Virus record (IMG/VR): IMGVR_UViG_3300029331_000006
Origin: a virus
DNA: 41,882 bases
Direction: 5' to 3' (one strand)
Below the pieces are notes generated by a model that saw only the letters and a list, made by a program, of their open reading frames with translations, searched no databases and was not told the DNA's origin. Below are positions 4,478 through 10,417 of this stretch, piece after piece (the first letter of the stretch is position 1; each line of letters opens with the position of its first letter). Both the position numbers and the translations under genes were made by a program.

Positions 4478-4740
4478 CAGCTATATTGATACCCTTTTAC
4501 AAGTGGCTCCCACTGTGTTTGTTTGCTTACACTTACGGGAGCTATTCTTTTATAACCACCGTCACAATTATAATCGGCATTCTTATTTGAAATAATCTTA
4601 CTACTTCCTACATAGTAATAATCACCTGTATGACGATTTTGTGATACGTATAAACACAATGCTTTTTCTTCATCTGCATATATCACATGAAGAAGAATAC
4701 CGTTATCGAGCTTTATATACTCATCTTTCTTAAATTTCAT
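4474..4740 (-). CDS. hypothetical early protein
   Basis: Start ATG at 4740 (MKFKKDEY) after RBS AGGTGAG. Confidence 0.65.
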   Translation of the reverse strand: MKFKKDEYIKLDNGILLHVIYADEEKALCLYVSQNRHTGDYYYVGSSKIISNKNADYNCDGGYKRIAPVSVSKQTQWEPLVKGYQYSC

Positions 4741-4774
4741 AATTCTCACCTACTTTCTTATATTACCTATGCAT

Positions 4775-4792
4775 AGTTGCTTTTAGGAAACT
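4775..4792. promoter_or_regulatory. Distal operator-like site (AGTTGCTT-TT-AGGAAACT)
   Basis: 16 of 18 positions match site 5101-5118. Same half-site, AGGAAAC, as the switch-region sites. Confidence 0.4.
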
Positions 4793-4995
4793 AATTCAGC
4801 AAAAAAAATATTCATTATTTTTTCTTCATCTAATCCAAGAATAGACGCAATCTTTTGAATTTCTTCTTGCTTAAAGCTTGTTTCCCCTTTTAACCTGCTA
4901 TATAGGCATTTTTTTGATACACCCAATCTCTCTGCAAGTTGCGGTTTTGTTAAACCCTTTCTTGCAATTTCTGCATTTAAGTCGTCTATGTTCAT
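4783..4995 (-). CDS. Cro-like XRE-family HTH regulator
   Basis: 70 aa with HTH LTKPQLAERLGVSKKCLYSRLKG. Divergent from the CI gene. Confidence 0.85.
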   Translation of the reverse strand: MNIDDLNAEIARKGLTKPQLAERLGVSKKCLYSRLKGETSFKQEEIQKIASILGLDEEKIMNIFFAELVS

Positions 4996-5012
4996 TTTAT
5001 CACCTCTTTCTT

Positions 5013-5030
5013 TGTTTCCTTTAGGATACT
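5013..5030. promoter_or_regulatory. Operator palindrome TGTTTCCT-TT-AGGATACT
   Basis: Near-perfect dyad lying just downstream of the cro promoter -10 element. Confidence 0.5.
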
Positions 5031-5033
5031 TCT

Positions 5034-5062
5034 ATGATAGCATATAATTCTTACTCTGTCAA
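5034..5062 (-). promoter_or_regulatory. Early lytic promoter (cro direction)
   Basis: On the minus strand: TTGACA (5057-5062), 17-nt spacer, TGcTATCAT (-10 at 5034-5039). Confidence 0.6.
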
Positions 5063-5077
5063 CCCCTTTAGGAAACT
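5060..5077. promoter_or_regulatory. Operator half-site (TT-AGGAAACT) abutting the cro -35 element
   Basis: Exact AGGAAACT at 5070-5077. The left half is degenerate. Confidence 0.35.
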
Positions 5078-5100
5078 TTTTAAAACTTTTTTGAAAAAAT

Positions 5101-5118
5101 AGTTGCTTTTTTGAAACT
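5101..5118. promoter_or_regulatory. Operator-like site AGTTGCTT-TT-TTGAAACT overlapping the CI -35 element
   Basis: Sequence relative of 4775-4792 and 5013-5030. Confidence 0.4.
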
Positions 5119-5131
5119 GTTATGTTAATAT
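5103..5131 (+). promoter_or_regulatory. Promoter for the CI repressor gene
   Basis: TTGCTT (5103-5108), 17-nt spacer, TGtTAATAT (5123-5131). Confidence 0.5.
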
Positions 5132-5157
5132 GTATTTATAGAAAAGGGGTGTTTACA

Positions 5158-5787
5158 TTGGATATAGGAACAATTATAAGAAATAGACGTTTAGAACTTA
5201 ATTTAACCCTTGAGGAAATAGGAAATGCCGTTGGGGTTAGCAAAAGTACAGTTCAAAAGTGGGAGAATGGTTTTATATCTAATATGAAAAGAGATAAAAT
5301 CTCTGCATTAGCAAAGGTTTTAAATATTAATCCAGTTACTTTAATTACAGGTGAATATCCTGTTTCTCTACCAGAGGGAGCAGTACCATACAATCCTGTA
5401 ATGCACAGAATACCTATCTTAGGAGATATTGCGGCAGGATTACCGATATTTTCGGAAGAAAATTATGAGGGATATACTTATACAGAATTAAATCATGGTG
5501 GTAAATATTTTGCTTTAAAAGTAAAGGGCGATAGTATGACCGCCGCAAACATTCCCGACGGAAGTCTTGTAACTGTTCGTGTACAACCAACAGTTGAAAA
5601 CGGTGAAATTGCCGCTGTTCGTGTTAATCACGATACTTTTACGATAAAGCGCTTTAAGCAAGAAAAAAATATTGTCATGCTTATGCCTCAATCTTATAAC
5701 CCCGAACATCAAACACAAATTTATGACTTAAAACAAGACGATGTTGAGATAGTAGGAAAAGTAGTTGAATGTAAAGTCGGTTTTTAA
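5158..5787 (+). CDS. CI-type repressor, XRE HTH plus S24 (LexA-like) self-cleaving peptidase domain
   Basis: HTH LTLEEIGNAVGVSKSTVQKWENG, AAG cleavage-site motif (GDIAAGLP), and catalytic GDSM with a downstream K (TIKRFK). Start is likely the TTG at 5158 after AAAGGGG; the ORF-track ATG at 5122 lies inside the promoter. Confidence 0.9.
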   Translation: MDIGTIIRNRRLELNLTLEEIGNAVGVSKSTVQKWENGFISNMKRDKISALAKVLNINPVTLITGEYPVSLPEGAVPYNPVMHRIPILGDIAAGLPIFSEENYEGYTYTELNHGGKYFALKVKGDSMTAANIPDGSLVTVRVQPTVENGEIAAVRVNHDTFTIKRFKQEKNIVMLMPQSYNPEHQTQIYDLKQDDVEIVGKVVECKVGF

Positions 5788-5837
5788 TATTTATACAGAT
5801 TAACAAATTGTATTTTTTAGAAATATAAAACAAGGAA

Positions 5838-6167
5838 GTGATGATATTGAATGAATTAGAACAAATTCACAACCTAAGTAAAGCACACAAGATACAAATG
5901 ACAGACCACGCATTAAAACGAGCTAACGAACGTTCGATAGATATTCTTACCGATATACTTCCGGCATTAAAGCGATGCGAAATAATCGAAGAATATCCAA
6001 ATGATTATCCATACAAAAGCTTCCTCGTAATCGGTAAAACATCAAGCGAAAAATATATACACATAGTTTGTGCCATAGGAGAAGATGTTGTTTGGATAAT
6101 AACAGAATATTTCCCGAATAATATAGAATGGGAAAAAGACTTTAAAACAAGAAAGAAGGGTTTATAA
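5838..6167 (+). CDS. DUF4258-family protein (toxin-like), copy 1
   Basis: Motif pattern HALKRANERSI...IIEEYP...IHIVCA...VWIITEY. Start is ambiguous: GTG 5838, ATG 5841 or TTG 5847. Confidence 0.8.
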   Translation: MMILNELEQIHNLSKAHKIQMTDHALKRANERSIDILTDILPALKRCEIIEEYPNDYPYKSFLVIGKTSSEKYIHIVCAIGEDVVWIITEYFPNNIEWEKDFKTRKKGL

Positions 6168-6168
6168 A

Positions 6169-6396
6169 ATGAAATGTCTATTATGTAAATCAAGTACAGA
6201 AAATAAGCTTACAAATTATATTGCAGATTTGGGGAATTGCATTATTGTTATACACAACGTGCCTACTCAAGTATGTACACAATGTGGCGAAAAATCATAT
6301 TCATTCGACGTTTCTGTTCGTATTCAAGAATTGATAAACCAAGTGAAAAATATTGTTTCGGGTATTGCTGAATTGAATTATTCGGAAGTTGCTTGA
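6169..6396 (+). CDS. YgiT/MqsA-type zinc-finger protein (antitoxin-like, no HTH domain), copy 1
   Basis: MKCLLC...VPTQVCTQCGEKSYS, i.e. a CxxC...CxxC ribbon. Starts 1 nt after the DUF4258 stop. Confidence 0.8.
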   Translation: MKCLLCKSSTENKLTNYIADLGNCIIVIHNVPTQVCTQCGEKSYSFDVSVRIQELINQVKNIVSGIAELNYSEVA

Positions 6397-6408
6397 TGTT
6401 ATAAGGAA

Positions 6409-6822
6409 GTGATGATATTGGAAATAATAAAATATTACGGTAGTGATGAAACGAAAACCGAATTTATAAATCATGACAGTGAGCCATTAATGGCAGTAAT
6501 TGCACACGACCGCTCACACGCTGTTGTTTCGTTGCTTGACGAGGGTTGTGAACACCATTTATTATTGGCAAAGGCTCTCGACAAATATAATATAGATGAA
6601 TATTTTAGAATTATTTTTGATAACGAAGGTGCGGATTGGACTTTTGTATGCCCGCCTAATTACAAAAATATAACTAACAAAGAAAAACGTATAACGGAAT
6701 TTTTTAATGACGGTGTTGATGCTATAACCGAATTTCTGAAACAAATCGGTTATGACGTGCCTATTAACGTCCCAAGACGTTACCGCAGACATATGGACTA
6801 TTTGAAAAATTCAGAGTATTAA
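6409..6822 (+). CDS. hypothetical protein between the two DUF4258/ZnF pairs
   Basis: 137-aa ORF. Its initiation region is an exact 18-nt copy of the one at 5832-5849. Confidence 0.7.
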   Translation: MMILEIIKYYGSDETKTEFINHDSEPLMAVIAHDRSHAVVSLLDEGCEHHLLLAKALDKYNIDEYFRIIFDNEGADWTFVCPPNYKNITNKEKRITEFFNDGVDAITEFLKQIGYDVPINVPRRYRRHMDYLKNSEY

Positions 6823-6863
6823 AGGGGTTTTTATATATAAAATTAGAGAAACGTAAGTAAAAA

Positions 6864-7208
6864 TTGAAAGGATTGATAACAATTAACGATTTTCCATATA
6901 ATATAAACGATTTGAAAAATGCGTGTAAGAATAAAAAAATTATTTGGAAAGAACACGCTACTCAAAGGCTATTGCAAAGAAAAATATTAAGAGATGAAGT
7001 CATACAATGTGTTTTAAACGGCGAAATTATAGAAAATTATATAAGCGACAAACCTTTTGCAAGTTGTCTTGTATTCGGATATAGAGGTATTGACAAGCCG
7101 TTACACGTCGTATGTAGTTTTGACGACGAATATATCTATATTATAACAGCATATATTCCCGATACCATAAAATTTTATGATGATTTGAAAACAAGAAAGG
7201 AGAATTAA
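6864..7208 (+). CDS. DUF4258-family protein (toxin-like), copy 2
   Basis: HATQRLLQRKI...IIENY...LHVVCS...IYIITAY. Diverged paralog of 5838-6167. Start is uncertain because the RBS is weak. Confidence 0.75.
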   Translation: MKGLITINDFPYNINDLKNACKNKKIIWKEHATQRLLQRKILRDEVIQCVLNGEIIENYISDKPFASCLVFGYRGIDKPLHVVCSFDDEYIYIITAYIPDTIKFYDDLKTRKEN

Positions 7209-7210
7209 TT

Positions 7211-7441
7211 ATGAAATGTATCGAATGTGGTCATGACACTATTAACAAAAACAGAACATATGTTGCAAATCTTGAAAATTGCGTTATTATTATAAAAAAT
7301 GTTCCGGCTATGGTTTGTGAGCATTGCAACGAAGTTTATTATTCCGATGAAGTATTCGGGCAAATTGAAAAAATAGTATACAAACTCGAAAACATTATAA
7401 ATGATATTGCAGTTATTGACTATACAAATTCTGCCGCGTAA
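7211..7441 (+). CDS. YgiT/MqsA-type zinc-finger protein (antitoxin-like), copy 2
   Basis: MKCIECGH...VPAMVCEHCNEVYYS. Diverged paralog of 6169-6396. Confidence 0.8.
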   Translation: MKCIECGHDTINKNRTYVANLENCVIIIKNVPAMVCEHCNEVYYSDEVFGQIEKIVYKLENIINDIAVIDYTNSAA

Positions 7442-7561
7442 AAAATTCCCCTGCCTGTTGGAGCAGACAGAGGAAAAAGAATAAAGTGCATTTATACACA
7501 TATGTCACGCTCCCCACGGAGTGTGTGAGTTGAAATATAACACAAGAAAGGAAGATTTACG

Positions 7562-9040
7562 ATGAATGTAGCCCTGTATTTACGAAAATCGAGAGCGGAC
7601 GAAAACAATCCGCTTGAAACACTTGAACGTCACAAAGAAATTCTTCTTTCTTATGCAAAGGACAATAATTTAACGGTCATTGACATATTTGAAGAAGTGA
7701 TAAGCGGAGGAATGTTATACAACAGAACGGAAATGCTGAAACTGCTTGACGCTATTCCCTCGCACATATATGATGCGGTATTATGTATTGACCTTGACCG
7801 TTTAGGGCGCGGAAGTGCCGCAGACAGTGAAAAAATCTTTGACGTTCTTAAAGAAAATGACGTGAAAATTATTACACTCAAAAAAATATATGACCTCAAC
7901 AACGAGTACGACGAAGATTACAGTGAATTTGAGATGTTTATGGCTCGTAAGGAGCTTAAATTCATCACTCGCAGAATGAACAGAGGACGTATCAAATCAA
8001 TCAACGACGGTTGTTTTGTGTCGGGTGCTCCGTTTGGTTATCGAAATGCCGTAATAAATAAAAAGCACACGTTGGAAGTATATGAACCGGAGGCGAAATA
8101 TGTTCGTATGATATTTGATATGTATGTAAATCAAAGTATGGGTATTACTTCAATAAGCCGTCAGCTTGCAAATTTGGGTGTCTTGAGCAAGAAAAATACA
8201 CCGCTCCACCCCACCACAATCGCCCGTATGCTCCGAAATCATACTTACATAGGTAAAATAGTGTGGAACAAATCAAAGTCTGTTAAAGGCAAAAATACGC
8301 AAGAAAAAACGAGTAAAGATGATTGGTTATATGTTCCCGGACTGCACGAGCCGATAATTGACGAGAACACGTTCAATAAAGCACAAGATATTATAAATCT
8401 GAAATATAAACCGCCTATGCGTACAGGCACGTTGCAAAATCCGTTTGCAGGGCTTTTAAAGTGTGCTAATTGCGGTCGGGCAATAGTTATCAATACTTCT
8501 AACGAAACCGTTGAAAAATACCGTCTTTGTTGCCGTACACTTGGTTGTAATAAAGCCTCTGCATTAAGTATTGTAGAAGATAAGGTATTTGAAGTGCTTA
8601 CAAAGGAATTTAAAGATATTGAATTGTCTTTAAAAAATATCCGTCAATCGCATAATAAGGATAAACTTTCTTGTCTTGATACAATAGCCACTTTGGAAAC
8701 AGAATTAAAAAAACTTGATAAACAACAACTCCGCCTGTATGACTTGCTTGAACAGGCAGTGTATACAAAGGAACTTTTTCTTGAACGCAATAACGCAATT
8801 TCGGATAGACGAAAGAAAATTAATGCCACGATAGCACAGGAACGCGAAAAATTTAAACTTGTAGATACTTCTTCCATCGAAGAACGCCTCCCCCTTTTGC
8901 GTGAACTTCTCACCAATTACAACTCTCTTTCAGCCGCTGAAAAAAATTCTATTCTTAAAAATTTTGTGAAAAAAATTGAATATAAACGTGAAAAATCCGC
9001 TCCCGAGGGCGATATTTTCTTAAAAATCTATTATAAATAA
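7562..9040 (+). CDS. large serine recombinase (integrase)
   Basis: 492 aa. N-terminal resolvase-type domain (ALYLRKSRADE), recombinase domain, zinc ribbon (CANCGRAIV...CC) and a C-terminal coiled coil. Confidence 0.92.
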   Translation: MNVALYLRKSRADENNPLETLERHKEILLSYAKDNNLTVIDIFEEVISGGMLYNRTEMLKLLDAIPSHIYDAVLCIDLDRLGRGSAADSEKIFDVLKENDVKIITLKKIYDLNNEYDEDYSEFEMFMARKELKFITRRMNRGRIKSINDGCFVSGAPFGYRNAVINKKHTLEVYEPEAKYVRMIFDMYVNQSMGITSISRQLANLGVLSKKNTPLHPTTIARMLRNHTYIGKIVWNKSKSVKGKNTQEKTSKDDWLYVPGLHEPIIDENTFNKAQDIINLKYKPPMRTGTLQNPFAGLLKCANCGRAIVINTSNETVEKYRLCCRTLGCNKASALSIVEDKVFEVLTKEFKDIELSLKNIRQSHNKDKLSCLDTIATLETELKKLDKQQLRLYDLLEQAVYTKELFLERNNAISDRRKKINATIAQEREKFKLVDTSSIEERLPLLRELLTNYNSLSAAEKNSILKNFVKKIEYKREKSAPEGDIFLKIYYK

Positions 9041-9058
9041 CTTTTTACCCACCTTATG

Positions 9059-9096
9059 TATCTTGTTGCCATAGCTGTATAGATAACAACAAGATA
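9059..9096. other. Candidate attP core (10-bp inverted arms around an 18-bp centre)
   Basis: TATCTTGTTG ... CAACAAGATA. No T-run follows, so it is not a typical terminator. Lies between the integrase 3' end and the lysis side of the genome. Confidence 0.3.
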
Positions 9097-9103
9097 CCCA
9101 ACC

Positions 9104-9140
9104 AAAAAAGAACATAAGTATTTTGCCTATGTTCTTTTCT
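9104..9140. terminator. Bidirectional intrinsic terminator
   Basis: AAAAGAACATA / TATGTTCTTTT 11-bp stem with an A-run before it and a T-run after it. Sits between convergent genes. Confidence 0.7.
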
Positions 9141-9155
9141 AATTATATACACATA

Positions 9156-9509
9156 CTATTTATCACGAACTTCAAAAATTAAATCTCCTGGCTTTATATG
9201 CTCTGTATTTTTATCATTTTTTGATATTATATGTATTTGGGGTTGACTCTCTATTGCTTTTTCAGTTTCTGATATTCTTTTTACTAATTCCCTAAGTTCT
9301 TCTTGTGTTGTTTCTTTTGTGAGTTTTATTATAGCGTATGAATCCAATCCATTATGTATAATTTGAGCTTGTTGTATGTTTGAATCTTTTACTTGTTGTA
9401 TCTTGTTTGAATTAGCTACCATAATGCATTTAATTCCTATACCGCCTAAAACCACCCCACAAATTCCGACTATACTATTAATAATTCCTATTACATCTGA
9501 AATGCTCAT
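9156..9509 (-). CDS. N-terminally membrane-anchored hypothetical protein (moron)
   Basis: TM segment VIGIINSIVGICGVVLGGIGI. Has its own promoter and terminator; RBS AAAGGGGAA. Confidence 0.75.
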   Translation of the reverse strand: MSISDVIGIINSIVGICGVVLGGIGIKCIMVANSNKIQQVKDSNIQQAQIIHNGLDSYAIIKLTKETTQEELRELVKRISETEKAIESQPQIHIISKNDKNTEHIKPGDLIFEVRDK

Positions 9510-9554
9510 ATATTTATTTTCCCCTTTATAATCTCAATATATGTCTTTGATTTT

Positions 9555-9583
9555 ATATTATCATAAAATTAGGAGTTTTTCAA
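9555..9583 (-). promoter_or_regulatory. Near-consensus promoter of the 9156-9509 moron
   Basis: On the minus strand: TTGAAA (9578-9583), 17-nt spacer, TGaTAATAT (-10 at 9555-9560). Confidence 0.6.
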
Positions 9584-9589
9584 GAACTA

Positions 9590-9620
9590 AAACAAAATAA
9601 GGGTGGCATTACACCACCCT
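9590..9620 (-). terminator. Intrinsic terminator after the lysis genes
   Basis: On the minus strand: AGGGTGG-tgtaatg-CCACCCT followed by TATTTTGTTTT. Confidence 0.65.
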
Positions 9621-9625
9621 CAAAA

Positions 9626-10417
9626 CTACTTATTATACATACCACATCTGTGCTCACGACAAATTGTCCTTAAATCTTTGTAGGATAAACCTAAACGACC
9701 TTGCTCATCTCCAACTAATGCACCGTAATCCATAGCCGCTTGCACGGCTTTTCTTGCCCAATCGGGCATATTGTCGTCCACATAATCGTAAATCATTGTT
9801 GTTTGTACTACAGCGACCAACTGTCTGTTGACATCTTGTAAATCAGCGATTTTTGCCGCTTGTGCGTTAATTAAATCTTTTAGTTCATTGTACTGTGACA
9901 TAGTTAAATCCTCACTTCCTGTTAATCTTTTCTTAAAATTATCCCACAGCTCCGGCTGACGTACAAAAGGTTCGGGACACTTCTTGTCCCACACATCATA
10001 GTGTCGTAATACGTTTTCTACCGGCACACCGTATTTATTCATCAAATACCGTGTTAATTTAATTGTCTGTTCCACAATCCCGTCACGAATATAGTATTTA
10101 CCGTCCGCACCGATACGACTACACATTTCAATCGAAATACTGTTCATATTCCTGCAATACGGGTGTTTGTAATTTTTTGTACCACCGACAGCCCACGCCG
10201 CCCATTTATCGGGTACAGATTGATATATACCGTCATCACCGATAAAATAATGTGCAGACGCACCACGATTTGCACCGCTGAAATAATTGCAGTTGTTCAA
10301 TGCCGTATCGCCGTTATTTGACGTAAAATGAATGACGATATATTTAATATCGCCATTCCTGTATGTGTAGCAATTAGACGTGTGGCACTGCGGACCCTGT
10401 TTGATTTGAATATCCAT
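9626..10417 (-). CDS. endolysin, N-acetylmuramoyl-L-alanine amidase (Amidase_2/PGRP type) with a C-terminal binding module
   Basis: IVIHFTSN, ASAHYFIGDDG, SISIEMC and RHYDVWDKKCP motifs. The C-terminus is shared with the tail protein at 20424-21257. Confidence 0.92.
   Translation of the reverse strand: MDIQIKQGPQCHTSNCYTYRNGDIKYIVIHFTSNNGDTALNNCNYFSGANRGASAHYFIGDDGIYQSVPDKWAAWAVGGTKNYKHPYCRNMNSISIEMCSRIGADGKYYIRDGIVEQTIKLTRYLMNKYGVPVENVLRHYDVWDKKCPEPFVRQPELWDNFKKRLTGSEDLTMSQYNELKDLINAQAAKIADLQDVNRQLVAVVQTTMIYDYVDDNMPDWARKAVQAAMDYGALVGDEQGRLGLSYKDLRTICREHRCGMYNK

What the first reader, a model, noticed from the sequence alone, without database searches (positions are those of the whole stretch)
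5832..7441. Two diverged DUF4258 / YgiT-zinc-finger (toxin-antitoxin-like) pairs flank an unknown 137-aa gene in the CI-integrase moron slot
Genes 5838-6167 with 6169-6396, and 6864-7208 with 7211-7441, are paralogous pairs. By eye the DUF4258 proteins are about one third identical and the zinc-finger proteins slightly more.

DUF4258 next to a YgiT/MqsA-type zinc ribbon is a recurrent predicted type II TA arrangement. Here, though, the zinc-finger proteins lack the MqsA HTH domain, the pair is duplicated in tandem, and an unrelated ORF (6409-6822) sits between the copies.

That middle ORF and the first DUF4258 gene share an exact 18-nt initiation region, AAGGAAGTGATGATATTG (5832-5849 and 6403-6420). 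This suggests cassette shuffling or co-regulated translation.

The position between the repressor and the integrase is the classic lysogenic-conversion or defence slot, so the five-gene block could be an abortive-infection or superinfection-exclusion system expressed from the prophage.
Basis: partly seen in the sequence, partly recalled or inferred. Interest (0 to 1): 0.65.

Follow-up and report, generated by a model that had tools for sequence, protein, structure and literature searches.

The report
Two toxin-antitoxin cassettes beside a resident prophage gene
A gut Clostridia prophage carries, between its repressor and integrase genes, two separately acquired copies of a common but untested predicted toxin-antitoxin pair, one on each side of a resident gene of unknown function; the arrangement is an ordinary cargo hotspot, not a five-gene system.

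Summary
All five ORFs are present. The two toxin-like proteins are 34% identical and the two zinc-finger proteins 41%. The 18-nt repeat is exact and not expected by chance.

- **The pairs.** Each DUF4258 gene with its 75-76 aa YgiT zinc-ribbon gene belongs to a self-contained two-gene module. 79 of 80 related loci in bacterial genomes show the same pair. The toxin model has a RelE/BrnT/MqsR-like fold. The partner matches only the toxin-binding N-terminal half of MqsA.
- **Not a local duplication.** Each pair is 61-68% identical to pairs in other genomes.
- **Not a five-gene unit.** In 31 near-identical prophages the middle gene M is always present, with no pair, one or two, drawn from three lineages.
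- **The middle gene.** M's relatives (99 database clusters) lie between repressor and integrase in the phage contigs examined. Its confident model matches no known fold, and its distant relatives never sit beside these pairs.
- **The 18-nt repeat.** It is a duplicated translation start (ribosome-binding site, spacer, TTG) that exactly bounds the 571-bp pair-1 insertion/deletion.

Toxicity and any anti-phage role are untested. This is a new member of a known predicted kind, of modest interest.

The parts
5122..5787 (+). CI/LexA-like repressor (HTH_3 + Peptidase_S24). First gene of the + strand lysogeny operon that carries the block.
   Evidence: Pfam Peptidase_S24 8e-27 and HTH_3 4e-12. No + strand terminator-like site lies between its stop at 5787 and the integrase start at 7562.
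5832..5849 (+). 18-nt repeat, copy 1. Translation initiation region of T1: extended Shine-Dalgarno AAGGAAGTGAT, spacer GATA, start TTG.
   Evidence: Exact repeat with 0 expected by chance. It is the left boundary of the 571-bp T1A1 insertion/deletion. The TTG start is inferred from homologue N-termini.
5838..6167 (+). T1: DUF4258 toxin-like protein. 109 aa from the GTG, more likely 106 aa from the TTG at 5847.
   Evidence: Pfam DUF4258 7e-20. It keeps all residues that are invariant across the family alignments. Its nearest relative is in L032, 61%.
6169..6396 (+). A1: 75-aa YgiT-type zinc ribbon (C3, C6, C36, C39), putative antitoxin. It starts 1 nt after the T1 stop.
   Evidence: TIGR03831 8e-12, PHROG 29304 2e-19, MqsA profile positions 1-65 only. 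Its nearest relative is also in L032, 64%.
6403..6420 (+). 18-nt repeat, copy 2. Translation initiation region of M and right boundary of the T1A1 insertion/deletion.
   Evidence: Phages without T1A1 (L008, L010, L018) have a single copy directly in front of M.
6409..6822 (+). M: resident lysogeny-module gene of unknown function. 137 aa from the GTG, more likely 134 aa from the TTG at 6418.
   Evidence: 223 homologues at 69-99% identity among those listed and 99 clusters at 50% identity. AlphaFold2 pLDDT 82.7, pTM 0.81. No structural match in PDB or BFVD and no profile match. Present in all 31 close prophage loci.
6824..7439 (+). T2A2 cassette as defined by comparison. It is inserted between the stop codon of M and a conserved A-run plus hairpin.
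   Evidence: In L001, window 6403-6823 and window 7440-7700 are contiguous. Junction sequences are shown.
6864..7208 (+). T2: DUF4258 toxin-like protein, 114 aa. TTG start with no clear Shine-Dalgarno sequence.
   Evidence: Pfam DUF4258 9e-24. AlphaFold2 pLDDT 85.8. Foldseek best matches are BrnT 3u97 (prob 1.00, TM 0.70), 7vd7_A, Cami1, HigB2 and MqsR 3hi2. Nearest relatives are in L095 and L097, 63-64%.
7211..7441 (+). A2: 76-aa YgiT-type zinc ribbon, putative antitoxin. It has a strong Shine-Dalgarno sequence (AAAGGAG) and starts 2 nt after the T2 stop.
   Evidence: TIGR03831 9e-12, PHROG 29304 2e-22. Nearest relatives are in L095 and L097, 64-68%.
7446..7475 (-). Conserved hairpin followed by a T-run on the - strand (terminator-like). 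It marks the right edge of the downstream cargo slot.
   Evidence: Terminator scan: 12 pairs. The structure is kept, with 2 compensatory pairs, across 8 variants. Rfam gives only a sub-threshold hit.
7562..9040 (+). Large serine recombinase (integrase), last gene of the lysogeny operon.
   Evidence: Pfam Resolvase 3e-17, Recombinase 3e-24, Zn_ribbon_recom. It is 98-100% identical in the related prophages.

Best explanation
The block is three independent units in the lysogeny operon of a temperate Clostridia phage, not one system.

**Unit 1, M (6418-6822).** This is the resident gene. In this phage lineage it is always present between repressor and integrase. Its function is unknown and its predicted fold matches nothing known.

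**Units 2 and 3, T1A1 (5847-6396) and T2A2 (6864-7441).** These are two separately acquired cassettes of one widespread two-gene module. A roughly 105-115 aa DUF4258 protein with a RelE/BrnT/MqsR-type (BECR) fold is followed, 1-2 nt later, by a 75-76 aa four-cysteine zinc ribbon. That ribbon corresponds to the toxin-binding N-terminal domain of MqsA and has no DNA-binding half.

**Inferred mechanism.**
- The DUF4258 protein is an RNase-type translation inhibitor.
- The zinc ribbon neutralises it by direct binding.
- Because the ribbon has no HTH, the pair does not regulate its own transcription. It is read from the repressor promoter in lysogens.
- The weak initiation signal of T2 (TTG, no Shine-Dalgarno) against the strong one of A2 would keep the antitoxin in excess.
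- The likely payoff is prophage addiction or abortive infection when host expression is shut off.

**How the cassettes move.** They are exchanged at gene boundaries. T1A1 sits exactly between two copies of the 18-nt translation start of M, so T1 and M share an identical initiation region. T2A2 sits exactly between the stop codon of M and a conserved hairpin.

**Shown:** anatomy, family membership, predicted fold, conserved pairing, independent distribution and exact junctions. **Inferred:** RNase activity, neutralisation, co-transcription and biological role.
For: - **Families and identities:**
- **Conserved pairing:** 79 of 80 genome loci with a DUF4258 relative have a 75-78 aa zinc-ribbon ORF within a few nt downstream. 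The one exception is a contig that ends there.
- **Autonomous module:** the neighbours of those pairs fall into 158 different Pfam families.
- **Inherited as a unit:** T1 and A1 both have their nearest relative in L032, T2 and A2 in L095/L097, T3 and A3 in L108. All are at 56-68%, against 31-41% between the lineages found in this phage group.
- **Toxin fold:** the T2 model has pLDDT 85.8. Its best PDB matches are all RelE/ParE-superfamily toxins: BrnT, Cami1, HigB2, MqsR in complex with the MqsA N-domain, YoeB and ParE.
- **Intact key residues:** the invariant H, R, R, Y, S, H, T, Y, P and K-T-R of the toxin and the four Cys of the ribbon are kept in both window copies.
- **Combinatorial architectures:** in 31 prophage loci with an integrase 98-100% identical wherever it is on the contig, M occurs alone, with T1A1, with T2A2, with a third lineage T3A3 upstream or downstream, or with T1A1 plus T3A3.
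- **Exact junctions:**
- **M is independent of the pairs:**
- **No + strand terminator** between the repressor stop and the integrase start.
- **Literature:** DUF4258 is listed as a BECR/RelE-ParE family toxin of unknown activity, with 17 DUF4258-MqsA fusions (PMC11980606). It is equated with Ntox49 (bioRxiv 10.64898/2026.08.28.747851; PMC3482391). Its partners lie strictly downstream in E. coli (PMC10790755).
Against: - I found no experiment on a DUF4258 / zinc-ribbon pair. Toxicity, RNase activity and neutralisation are all inferred.
- The Foldseek E-values are weak (0.013 at best), although probabilities reach 1.00.
- One related contig (L009) keeps T1 intact while its A1 has lost the second CxxC pair through an in-frame 19-aa deletion. 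This argues against strong toxicity or against a zinc-dependent antidote, unless it is an assembly error or the T3A3 antitoxin on the same contig cross-protects.
- A labile antitoxin expressed from the repressor promoter would release toxin on induction, which looks costly for the phage.
- No PADLOC defence model matches the pairs.
- Co-transcription rests only on the absence of predicted terminators.
Confidence: 0.72

Rival explanations
1. The five genes form one integrated defence or exclusion system, with M as sensor, effector or regulator working with both DUF4258 / zinc-ribbon pairs.
For: All five genes are co-directional and tightly packed, with no predicted + strand terminator between them. 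T1 and M share an identical 18-nt initiation region. T1A1-M recurs as a trio in L002-L005.
Against: In prophages with an integrase 98-100% identical, M occurs with no pair (L017, L020, L029), with only an upstream pair, with only a downstream pair, or with different pair lineages. None of the more distant M loci examined has a pair. None of 80 pair loci has M. The shared 18-mer is explained as the junction of the insertion/deletion.
Confidence: 0.06
2. The two pairs arose by tandem duplication inside this prophage and then diverged, with M captured between the copies.
For: They are the same two-gene family in the same orientation about 1 kb apart. Some genomes do carry two pairs close together: L076, L082, L088 and L092.
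Against: T1/A1 are 61-64% identical to the pair in a Monoglobus genome (L032). T2/A2 are 63-68% identical to the pairs in L095 and L097. They are only 34/41% identical to each other. Sister phages carry either pair alone, or a third lineage, at the same slots.
Confidence: 0.05
3. The DUF4258 / zinc-ribbon pair is not a toxin-antitoxin module. It could instead be a benign RNA-processing enzyme with a zinc-ribbon cofactor or regulator, or a phage counter-defence factor.
For: I found no experimental toxicity data for this family. Its activity is listed as unknown. L009 keeps T1 intact with a damaged A1. A haloarchaeal virus study suggests that virus-encoded DUF4258 could act as counter-defence. 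The antitoxin-like protein lacks the DNA-binding domain typical of type II antitoxins.
Against: The pairing is strict, the coupling is tight (1-4 nt gaps or 4-nt overlaps), the order is toxin first as in mqsRA, and the genomic contexts are scattered. These are the hallmarks of mobile TA modules. The fold matches toxins of the RelE/ParE superfamily. The partner matches the MqsA domain that binds MqsR in PDB 3hi2. DUF4258-MqsA fusions exist.
Confidence: 0.15

Closest known systems
MqsR/MqsA (YgiU/YgiT) type II toxin-antitoxin system of E. coli
   Same: The order is toxin first, then antitoxin. The toxin has a RelE-like BECR fold: MqsR chains of 3hi2 match the T2 model with prob 0.92-0.96 and TM up to 0.59. 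The partner begins with a four-cysteine zinc ribbon (C3, C6, C36, C39) that matches MqsA profile positions 1-65. Entry 3hi2 shows that this N-terminal domain is the one complexed with the toxin.
   Different: The toxin belongs to Pfam DUF4258, not MqsR_toxin, which it does not match. The partner is only 75-76 aa and lacks the C-terminal Xre-HTH domain. It scores 16-19 bits against a cut-off of 61.8 for TIGR03830. MqsA-style DNA binding and autoregulation are therefore not expected.
DUF4258 (PF14076) / Ntox49 BECR-fold toxin family, as catalogued by Zhang et al. 2012, Gerdes 2025 and a 2026 BECR classification preprint
   Same: Both window proteins pass the Pfam cut-off by a wide margin. They keep the conserved His and Arg/Lys positions named for Ntox49. 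Association with MqsA-type partners is already recorded as 17 gene fusions.
   Different: The published table lists the gene order as antitoxin then toxin, and the activity as unknown. Here, and in 79 of 80 Clostridia loci, the order is toxin then antitoxin, with a stand-alone HTH-less zinc ribbon. The 2026 preprint places the family in the colicin-like branch, whereas my best structural matches are BrnT and RelE-like toxins.
BrnT/BrnA toxin-antitoxin system (Brucella abortus RNase toxin BrnT, PDB 3u97)
   Same: It is the best structural match of the T2 model (prob 1.00, target TM 0.70, rmsd 2.7 over 79 columns). The order is also toxin first (table).
   Different: There is no sequence-level match to BrnT_toxin. 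The partner is a zinc ribbon, not a BrnA-type antitoxin.
Moron / lysogenic-conversion slots and gene-boundary mosaicism in temperate phages (my own knowledge of the Hendrix-type model, not tested against a paper here)
   Same: Cargo between repressor and integrase varies among near-identical phages. It includes TA pairs, a membrane protein, an ImmA-like protease, RNase_T, HIRAN and a Zeta-like kinase. Junctions fall exactly at start and stop signals.
   Different: Here one junction is a perfectly duplicated 18-nt initiation region that ends in the start codon, so the incoming toxin gene and the resident gene use the same initiation signal.

Membership tests
DUF4258 (PF14076) / Ntox49 BECR toxins | Match to the family profile above the curated cut-off | tested here: met
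   71.5 and 84.0 bits against a cut-off of 25, covering profile positions 1-68 and 1-70 of 71.
DUF4258 (PF14076) / Ntox49 BECR toxins | Alpha+beta BECR (Barnase-EndoU-ColicinE5/D-RelE) fold | tested here: met
   AlphaFold2 model of T2 with pLDDT 85.8: helices followed by a four-stranded sheet. The best PDB matches are RelE/ParE-superfamily toxins, with prob up to 1.00 but weak E-values of 0.013 or more. T1 itself was not modelled.
DUF4258 (PF14076) / Ntox49 BECR toxins | Conserved His and Lys/Arg residues (Ntox49 signature 'H, [KR]') | tested here: met
   In T2 numbering, H31, Y59, S67, H81, Y97, P99 and the K-T-R motif (109-111) are invariant and R35, R39 and T95 nearly so across 40-70 sequences. 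All are present in both window copies.
DUF4258 (PF14076) / Ntox49 BECR toxins | Ribonuclease or other toxic activity | not testable with these tools
   I found no experimental data for the family. Its activity is listed as unknown.
YgiT-type zinc finger (TIGR03831) | Profile match above the cut-off, with two CxxC pairs | tested here: met
   45.2 and 45.1 bits against a cut-off of 20.2. C3, C6, C36 and C39 are invariant or nearly so (99-100%) across 77 sequences.
MqsA family antitoxin (TIGR03830 / PF15731) | [quoted passage not shown] | tested here: not met
   The proteins are 75-76 aa. Only profile positions 1-65 of 131 are matched. Scores are 16-21 bits against cut-offs of 30 (Pfam) and 61.8 (TIGR03830). 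All 79 partners in genome loci are also short.
MqsR toxin family (PF15723) | Sequence match to the MqsR_toxin profile | tested here: not met
   No hit at E up to 1. There is only fold-level similarity to MqsR in 3hi2.
Type II toxin-antitoxin module (generic) | Two small adjacent co-directional genes, tightly coupled, with the pairing conserved across unrelated genomic contexts | tested here: met
   Gaps of 1 and 2 nt in the window. 79 of 80 loci are paired. Neighbours fall into 158 Pfam families. Toxin and partner share nearest relatives.
Type II toxin-antitoxin module (generic) | Toxin arrests growth, and the antitoxin protein neutralises it by binding | not testable with these tools
   Needs expression and rescue assays and a binding test. 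L009 (intact T1, damaged A1) is a caution.
Type II toxin-antitoxin module (generic) | Autoregulation through a DNA-binding antitoxin | tested here: inconclusive
   No recognisable DNA-binding domain is found in A1 or A2. T1A1 and T2A2 have only about 40-nt leaders. A T3A3 copy in L007 has a promoter-like leader with a palindrome, so some regulation cannot be excluded.
Known anti-phage defence systems (PADLOC-DB 2.0) | Match to any defence-system protein model | tested here: not met
   No hit for T1, A1, T2 or A2. M has one weak, implausible hit (Cas8a, E 0.0013, 16 bits).

The most novel reading that the evidence does not exclude
M could be a previously unrecognised core component of lysogeny modules in Clostridia phages, for example a superinfection-immunity, anti-defence or switch-regulating protein with a new fold. 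The interval on either side of it could be a dedicated landing pad where ORF-only toxin-antitoxin cassettes are captured at translation signals, by duplicating the start region or fusing at the stop codon. A single phage lineage would then offer a natural combinatorial library of three mutually insulated DUF4258 / zinc-ribbon pairs whose antitoxin is just the MqsA toxin-binding domain.
Probability: 0.12. Interest if true: 0.6.

Novelty: new member of a known kind. Interest (0 to 1): 0.33.

Why it matters
- **An untested toxin family.** DUF4258 is catalogued as a RelE/ParE-superfamily toxin, but its activity is listed as unknown and I found no tested example. This phage lineage supplies three diverged, apparently intact pairs. 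Their antitoxin is reduced to the MqsA toxin-binding zinc ribbon. That makes a compact system for a first test of toxicity, of cognate against cross neutralisation, and of how a type II module works without a DNA-binding antitoxin.
- **A clean view of cassette exchange.** The comparative map shows precisely how cargo cassettes are swapped in a prophage lysogeny operon, down to a duplicated 18-nt start region.
- **An unstudied phage gene.** The map also flags a protein family, M, of unknown function. It has a confident predicted fold with no known match, and in the phage contigs examined it sits between repressor and integrase.
- **Limits.** None of this overturns current understanding. It refines an annotation and removes the idea of a five-gene system.

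Tried and rejected
1. **Close matches in isolated phages.** The block has no DNA match in the phage collection. T2 has no protein match there. M has one unannotated 44% match in a faecal phage record.
2. **Sequence searches of solved structures.** T2, A2 and M gave only chance-level hits. So did a profile of the M family.
3. **Function of M from fusions.** Longer proteins containing the M domain carry unrelated partners: 4 x HTH, ABC transporter pieces, KH, a transposase fragment. There is no consistent signal and some may be gene-calling artefacts.
4. **M as an integrase-specific directionality factor.** Rejected, because M precedes either serine or tyrosine integrases.
5. **A decayed DUF4258 gene upstream of the integrase.** The sequence there (…NTRKEDLR*, with an ATGA overlap, and 79% similar to the A2 start region) was tested against the toxin profile and scored about 0 bits. 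The motif count is barely above chance: 4 matches against 1.4 expected, reached in 5 of 100 shuffles.
6. **A promoter inside T2.** The promoter-like site at 6873-6902 (11 of 12 positions) lies inside the conserved N-terminal coding region of T2. Promoter-like hits in the region are not above the shuffled expectation (27 against 23.6), so I treat it as chance.
7. **RNA families.** An Rfam scan of 4500-9700 found only a sub-threshold NsiR1 hit on the hairpin.
8. The 34-sequence M alignment was too diverse for a locus scan, so a 10-sequence subset was used.
Full report
**1.

The ORF list and the sequence show five co-directional ORFs at the stated coordinates.
- 5838-6167 and 6864-7208 match Pfam DUF4258 at 7e-20 and 9e-24, far above the cut-off.
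- 6169-6396 and 7211-7441 pass the NCBIfam YgiT-type zinc-finger model (45 bits against 20.2). They match only the first 65 of 131 positions of the MqsA profile, below its cut-off. They also match PHROG 29304, a family of unknown function.
- 6409-6822 matches nothing in Pfam, NCBIfam or PHROGs, and has only a weak chance-level PADLOC match.

BLASTP gives 34% identity for the DUF4258 proteins and 41% for the zinc ribbons. The 18-mer AAGGAAGTGATGATATTG occurs exactly at 5832 and 6403, with none expected by chance.

The flanks are an HTH + S24 repressor (5122-5787) and a large serine recombinase (7562-9040). These seven genes are the only + strand block in a window whose other long ORFs lie almost entirely on the - strand. 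By its layout (structural, lysis and replication-type genes), the window looks like a temperate phage genome.

**2. What the pairs are**

I call the DUF4258 proteins T and the zinc ribbons A.

A scan of one genome per species with an alignment of T proteins returned 80 loci. Almost all are from Clostridia (Lachnospiraceae, Oscillospiraceae, Christensenella, Monoglobus), with two from Treponema.
- In 79 of them a 75-78 aa ORF matching the A profile starts within a few nucleotides of the T stop, or overlaps it by 4 nt. In two of the 79 the longest ORF call is longer (90 and 103 aa) because it begins upstream and overlaps T. The one exception is a contig that ends 78 bp after T.
- No partner carries an HTH-sized extension, so the short form is the norm for this subfamily, not a peculiarity of this phage.
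- The largest neighbouring ORFs on each side fall into 158 different Pfam families. There is only a mild excess of recombinases. That is the pattern of an autonomous mobile module.
- Four loci carry two complete pairs within 8 kb (L076, L082, L088, L092).

An AlphaFold2 model of T2 built on 30 homologues is confident (pLDDT 85.8). Its best PDB matches are all RelE/ParE-superfamily toxins:
- BrnT 3u97 (prob 1.00, target TM 0.70)
- a Salmonella TA-complex chain, 7vd7_A
- Cami1
- HigB2
- MqsR, in the 3hi2 complex with the MqsA N-terminal domain
- YoeB and ParE

The E-values are weak, 0.013 at best.

Across 40-70 sequences the family keeps H31, R35, R39, Y59, S67, H81, T95, Y97, P99 and K109-T110-R111 (T2 numbering), each in at least 96% of sequences. 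The zinc ribbons keep four cysteines in 99-100% of sequences. Both window copies retain all of these.

The literature agrees with a predicted, untested toxin.
- DUF4258 is listed among BECR-fold RelE/ParE families with activity unknown and no reference, and 17 DUF4258-MqsA gene fusions are reported (PMC11980606).
- It overlaps Ntox49, a predicted BECR RNase with conserved H and K/R (PMC3482391; bioRxiv 10.64898/2026.08.28.747851).
- In E. coli its partners lie strictly downstream (PMC10790755).

**3. The two pairs are not a local duplication**

Nearest-neighbour searches against the genome loci give the following.

| Window protein | Nearest relative | Identity |
|---|---|---|
| T1 | L032 (Monoglobus) | 61% |
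| A1 | L032 | 64% |
| T2 | L095 / L097 | 63-64% |
| A2 | L095 / L097 | 64-68% |

T1 against T2 is only 34%, and A1 against A2 only 41%. A third lineage, T3A3, is found in sister phages. It is 31-38% identical to the other two, and its nearest relative is L108 for both genes. Toxin and partner therefore travel together, and the window acquired two different lineages.

**4. The block is not one system**

The middle protein M has 223 database homologues; the listed ones are 69-99% identical. I recovered 31 close loci from metagenome and viral contigs and mapped the window proteins onto them. Wherever the integrase is on the contig it is 98-100% identical to the window's. The architectures found are:

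| Architecture | Loci |
|---|---|
| cI-T1A1-M-Int | L002, L004 (L003 and L005 are truncated) |
| cI-T1A1-M-T3A3-Int | L007, L009 |
| cI-M-T3A3-Int | L008, L022, L023 |
| cI-M-T2A2-Int | L012, L015, L016, L021, L025, L026, L028 |
| M-Int with no pair | L017, L020, L029 |
| T3A3-M-Int | L001 |

The window's combination, T1A1-M-T2A2, is not among them. M is the constant element and the pairs are optional.

More distant M relatives (43-52% identity) were found in about 34 further viral contigs. There M usually sits 12-50 nt after an S24 repressor and before a serine or a tyrosine integrase. None of these contigs has a T or A profile hit. None of the 80 pair-bearing genome loci has M.

In those distant phages, and in two close relatives (L023, L025), the space between repressor and M holds other cargo:
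- a ParE TA pair plus DUF2442
- RNase_T exonucleases
- a HIRAN protein
- a Zeta-toxin-like kinase
- DUF1828/1829
- a 389-aa membrane protein
- an ImmA-like protease that comes with an ImmR-type repressor

.

**5. The junctions, and what the 18-nt repeat is**

An alignment of the window with phages that lack T1A1 (L008, L010, L018) shows a single copy of the 18-mer directly in front of M. The 571 bp present only in the T1A1-bearing phages lie exactly between the two copies.

The 18-mer reads as an extended Shine-Dalgarno sequence (AAGGAAGTGAT), a 4-nt spacer and TTG.
- M homologues begin M-[NED]-I-I-K-Y, which aligns with the TTG at 6418, and most are 134 aa.
- The closest T1 homologue (L032) also starts at a TTG behind a similar leader.

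The repeat is therefore a duplicated translation initiation region that ends in the start codon. It is the scar, or the substrate, of the cassette insertion or deletion. As a consequence T1 and M have identical initiation signals.

T2A2 (6824-7439) lies exactly between the stop codon of M and an A-run plus hairpin. In L001, window positions 6823 and 7440 are adjacent.

The T3A3 segment shared between its upstream copy (L001) and its downstream copy (L007) runs from about 15 nt before the start codon to the A3 stop codon. Cassettes are therefore essentially ORF-only units exchanged at translation signals.

**6. Expression (inferred)**

- No + strand terminator-like site lies between the repressor stop and the integrase start. 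The hairpin at 7446-7475 has its T-run on the - strand.
- T1A1 and T2A2 have leaders of only about 40 nt.
- T2 has a TTG start without a clear Shine-Dalgarno sequence, while A2 has AAAGGAG and an ATG.

I infer transcription from the repressor promoter in lysogens, with translation favouring the antitoxin.

**7. The middle gene**

The M model is confident (pLDDT 82.7, pTM 0.81). It has no significant match in the PDB (best E 0.26, TM 0.33) or in BFVD. There is no profile match to solved structures or to Pfam for any of 34 family members. The family has 99 clusters at 50% identity. Conserved features include E-H-H, W-T-F-x-C-P-x-x-Y-K and a basic C-terminal P-R-R-Y-R-R-H. Its function remains unknown. 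What can be said is that it is a resident lysogeny-module gene, independent of the integrase type and of the pairs.

**8. Verdict**

The anatomy is real. The TA-like reading of each pair is well supported by comparative and structural evidence but is experimentally untested. The tandem-duplication and five-gene-system ideas are not supported. The 18-nt repeat is explained.

Cautions:
- L009 keeps T1 intact with an A1 that has lost its second CxxC pair.
- L021 has a frameshifted T2.
- Both are single metagenomic contigs.

This is a new instance of a known predicted module in a typical prophage cargo slot. It comes with a useful natural set of variants and an uncharacterised neighbouring gene family.

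Noticed in passing
L009:1801-1971 (homologue of window 6169-6396): The A1 homologue has an in-frame 19-aa deletion that removes the second CxxC pair (56 aa left). The adjacent T1 homologue is intact and identical to the window's. It could be an assembly error, cross-protection by the T3A3 antitoxin on the same contig, or a sign that T1 is not strongly toxic.
   Followed up: partly
L021:5450-5783 (homologue of window 6864-7208): The T2 homologue is split by a frameshift near codon 23. An internal ATG could still give a 92-aa product that holds the whole DUF4258 domain. A2 is intact.
   Followed up: no
window 7446-7475 (- strand): A hairpin with a T-run on the - strand lies between the cargo slot and the integrase. 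Its stem sequence differs among phage variants but pairing is kept (2 compensatory pairs in 8 sequences). Nothing obvious on the - strand ends there in the window. In L002 and L004 the slot holds - strand ORFs. Rfam gives only a sub-threshold NsiR1 hit.
   Followed up: partly
L007:5172-5295: When the T3A3 cassette sits downstream of M it has a roughly 130-nt leader with TTGACA-like hexamers and a CGATTTTGT-N8-ACAAAATCG palindrome (the CAAAATCG motif also occurs further upstream). This looks like its own promoter and operator, which is surprising for a pair whose antitoxin has no recognisable DNA-binding domain. The upstream copy in L001 lacks this leader.
   Followed up: no
P0123 (453 aa), P0134, P0209 and other database relatives of window 6409-6822: The M domain is occasionally found fused to other domains: four tandem HTH_3 repeats (P0123), ABC-transporter pieces, or a KH domain. 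The partners are inconsistent and some may be gene-calling artefacts. The 4 x HTH fusion could hint at a link to repressor function.
   Followed up: partly
L025:3900-4931; L023:3745-4914; L112:3198-3983; L118, L120, L121, L134, L136 (between repressor and M): The interval between repressor and M is a cargo hotspot across the wider phage group. It holds an ImmR/ImmA-type repressor-protease pair in place of the S24 repressor, a 389-aa membrane protein, a ParE TA pair plus DUF2442, RNase_T exonucleases, HIRAN, a Zeta-toxin-like kinase and DUF1828/1829.
   Followed up: partly
window 7539-7566 compared with 7188-7215: The initiation region of the integrase is 79% identical to that of A2 (…ACAAGAAAGGA…ATGAA). 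The reading frame upstream of the integrase ends …NTRKEDLR* with an ATGA overlap, which resembles a DUF4258 C-terminus. A profile test gave no support, so it is probably a shared purine-rich Shine-Dalgarno context.
   Followed up: yes
window 6143-6164 and 7187-7208: The invariant C-terminal K-T-R-K motif of the DUF4258 proteins is encoded by the purine-rich stretch (AAAACAAGAAAG…) that also supplies the Shine-Dalgarno sequence of the downstream zinc-ribbon gene. Protein conservation and translational coupling may therefore constrain the same bases.
   Followed up: no
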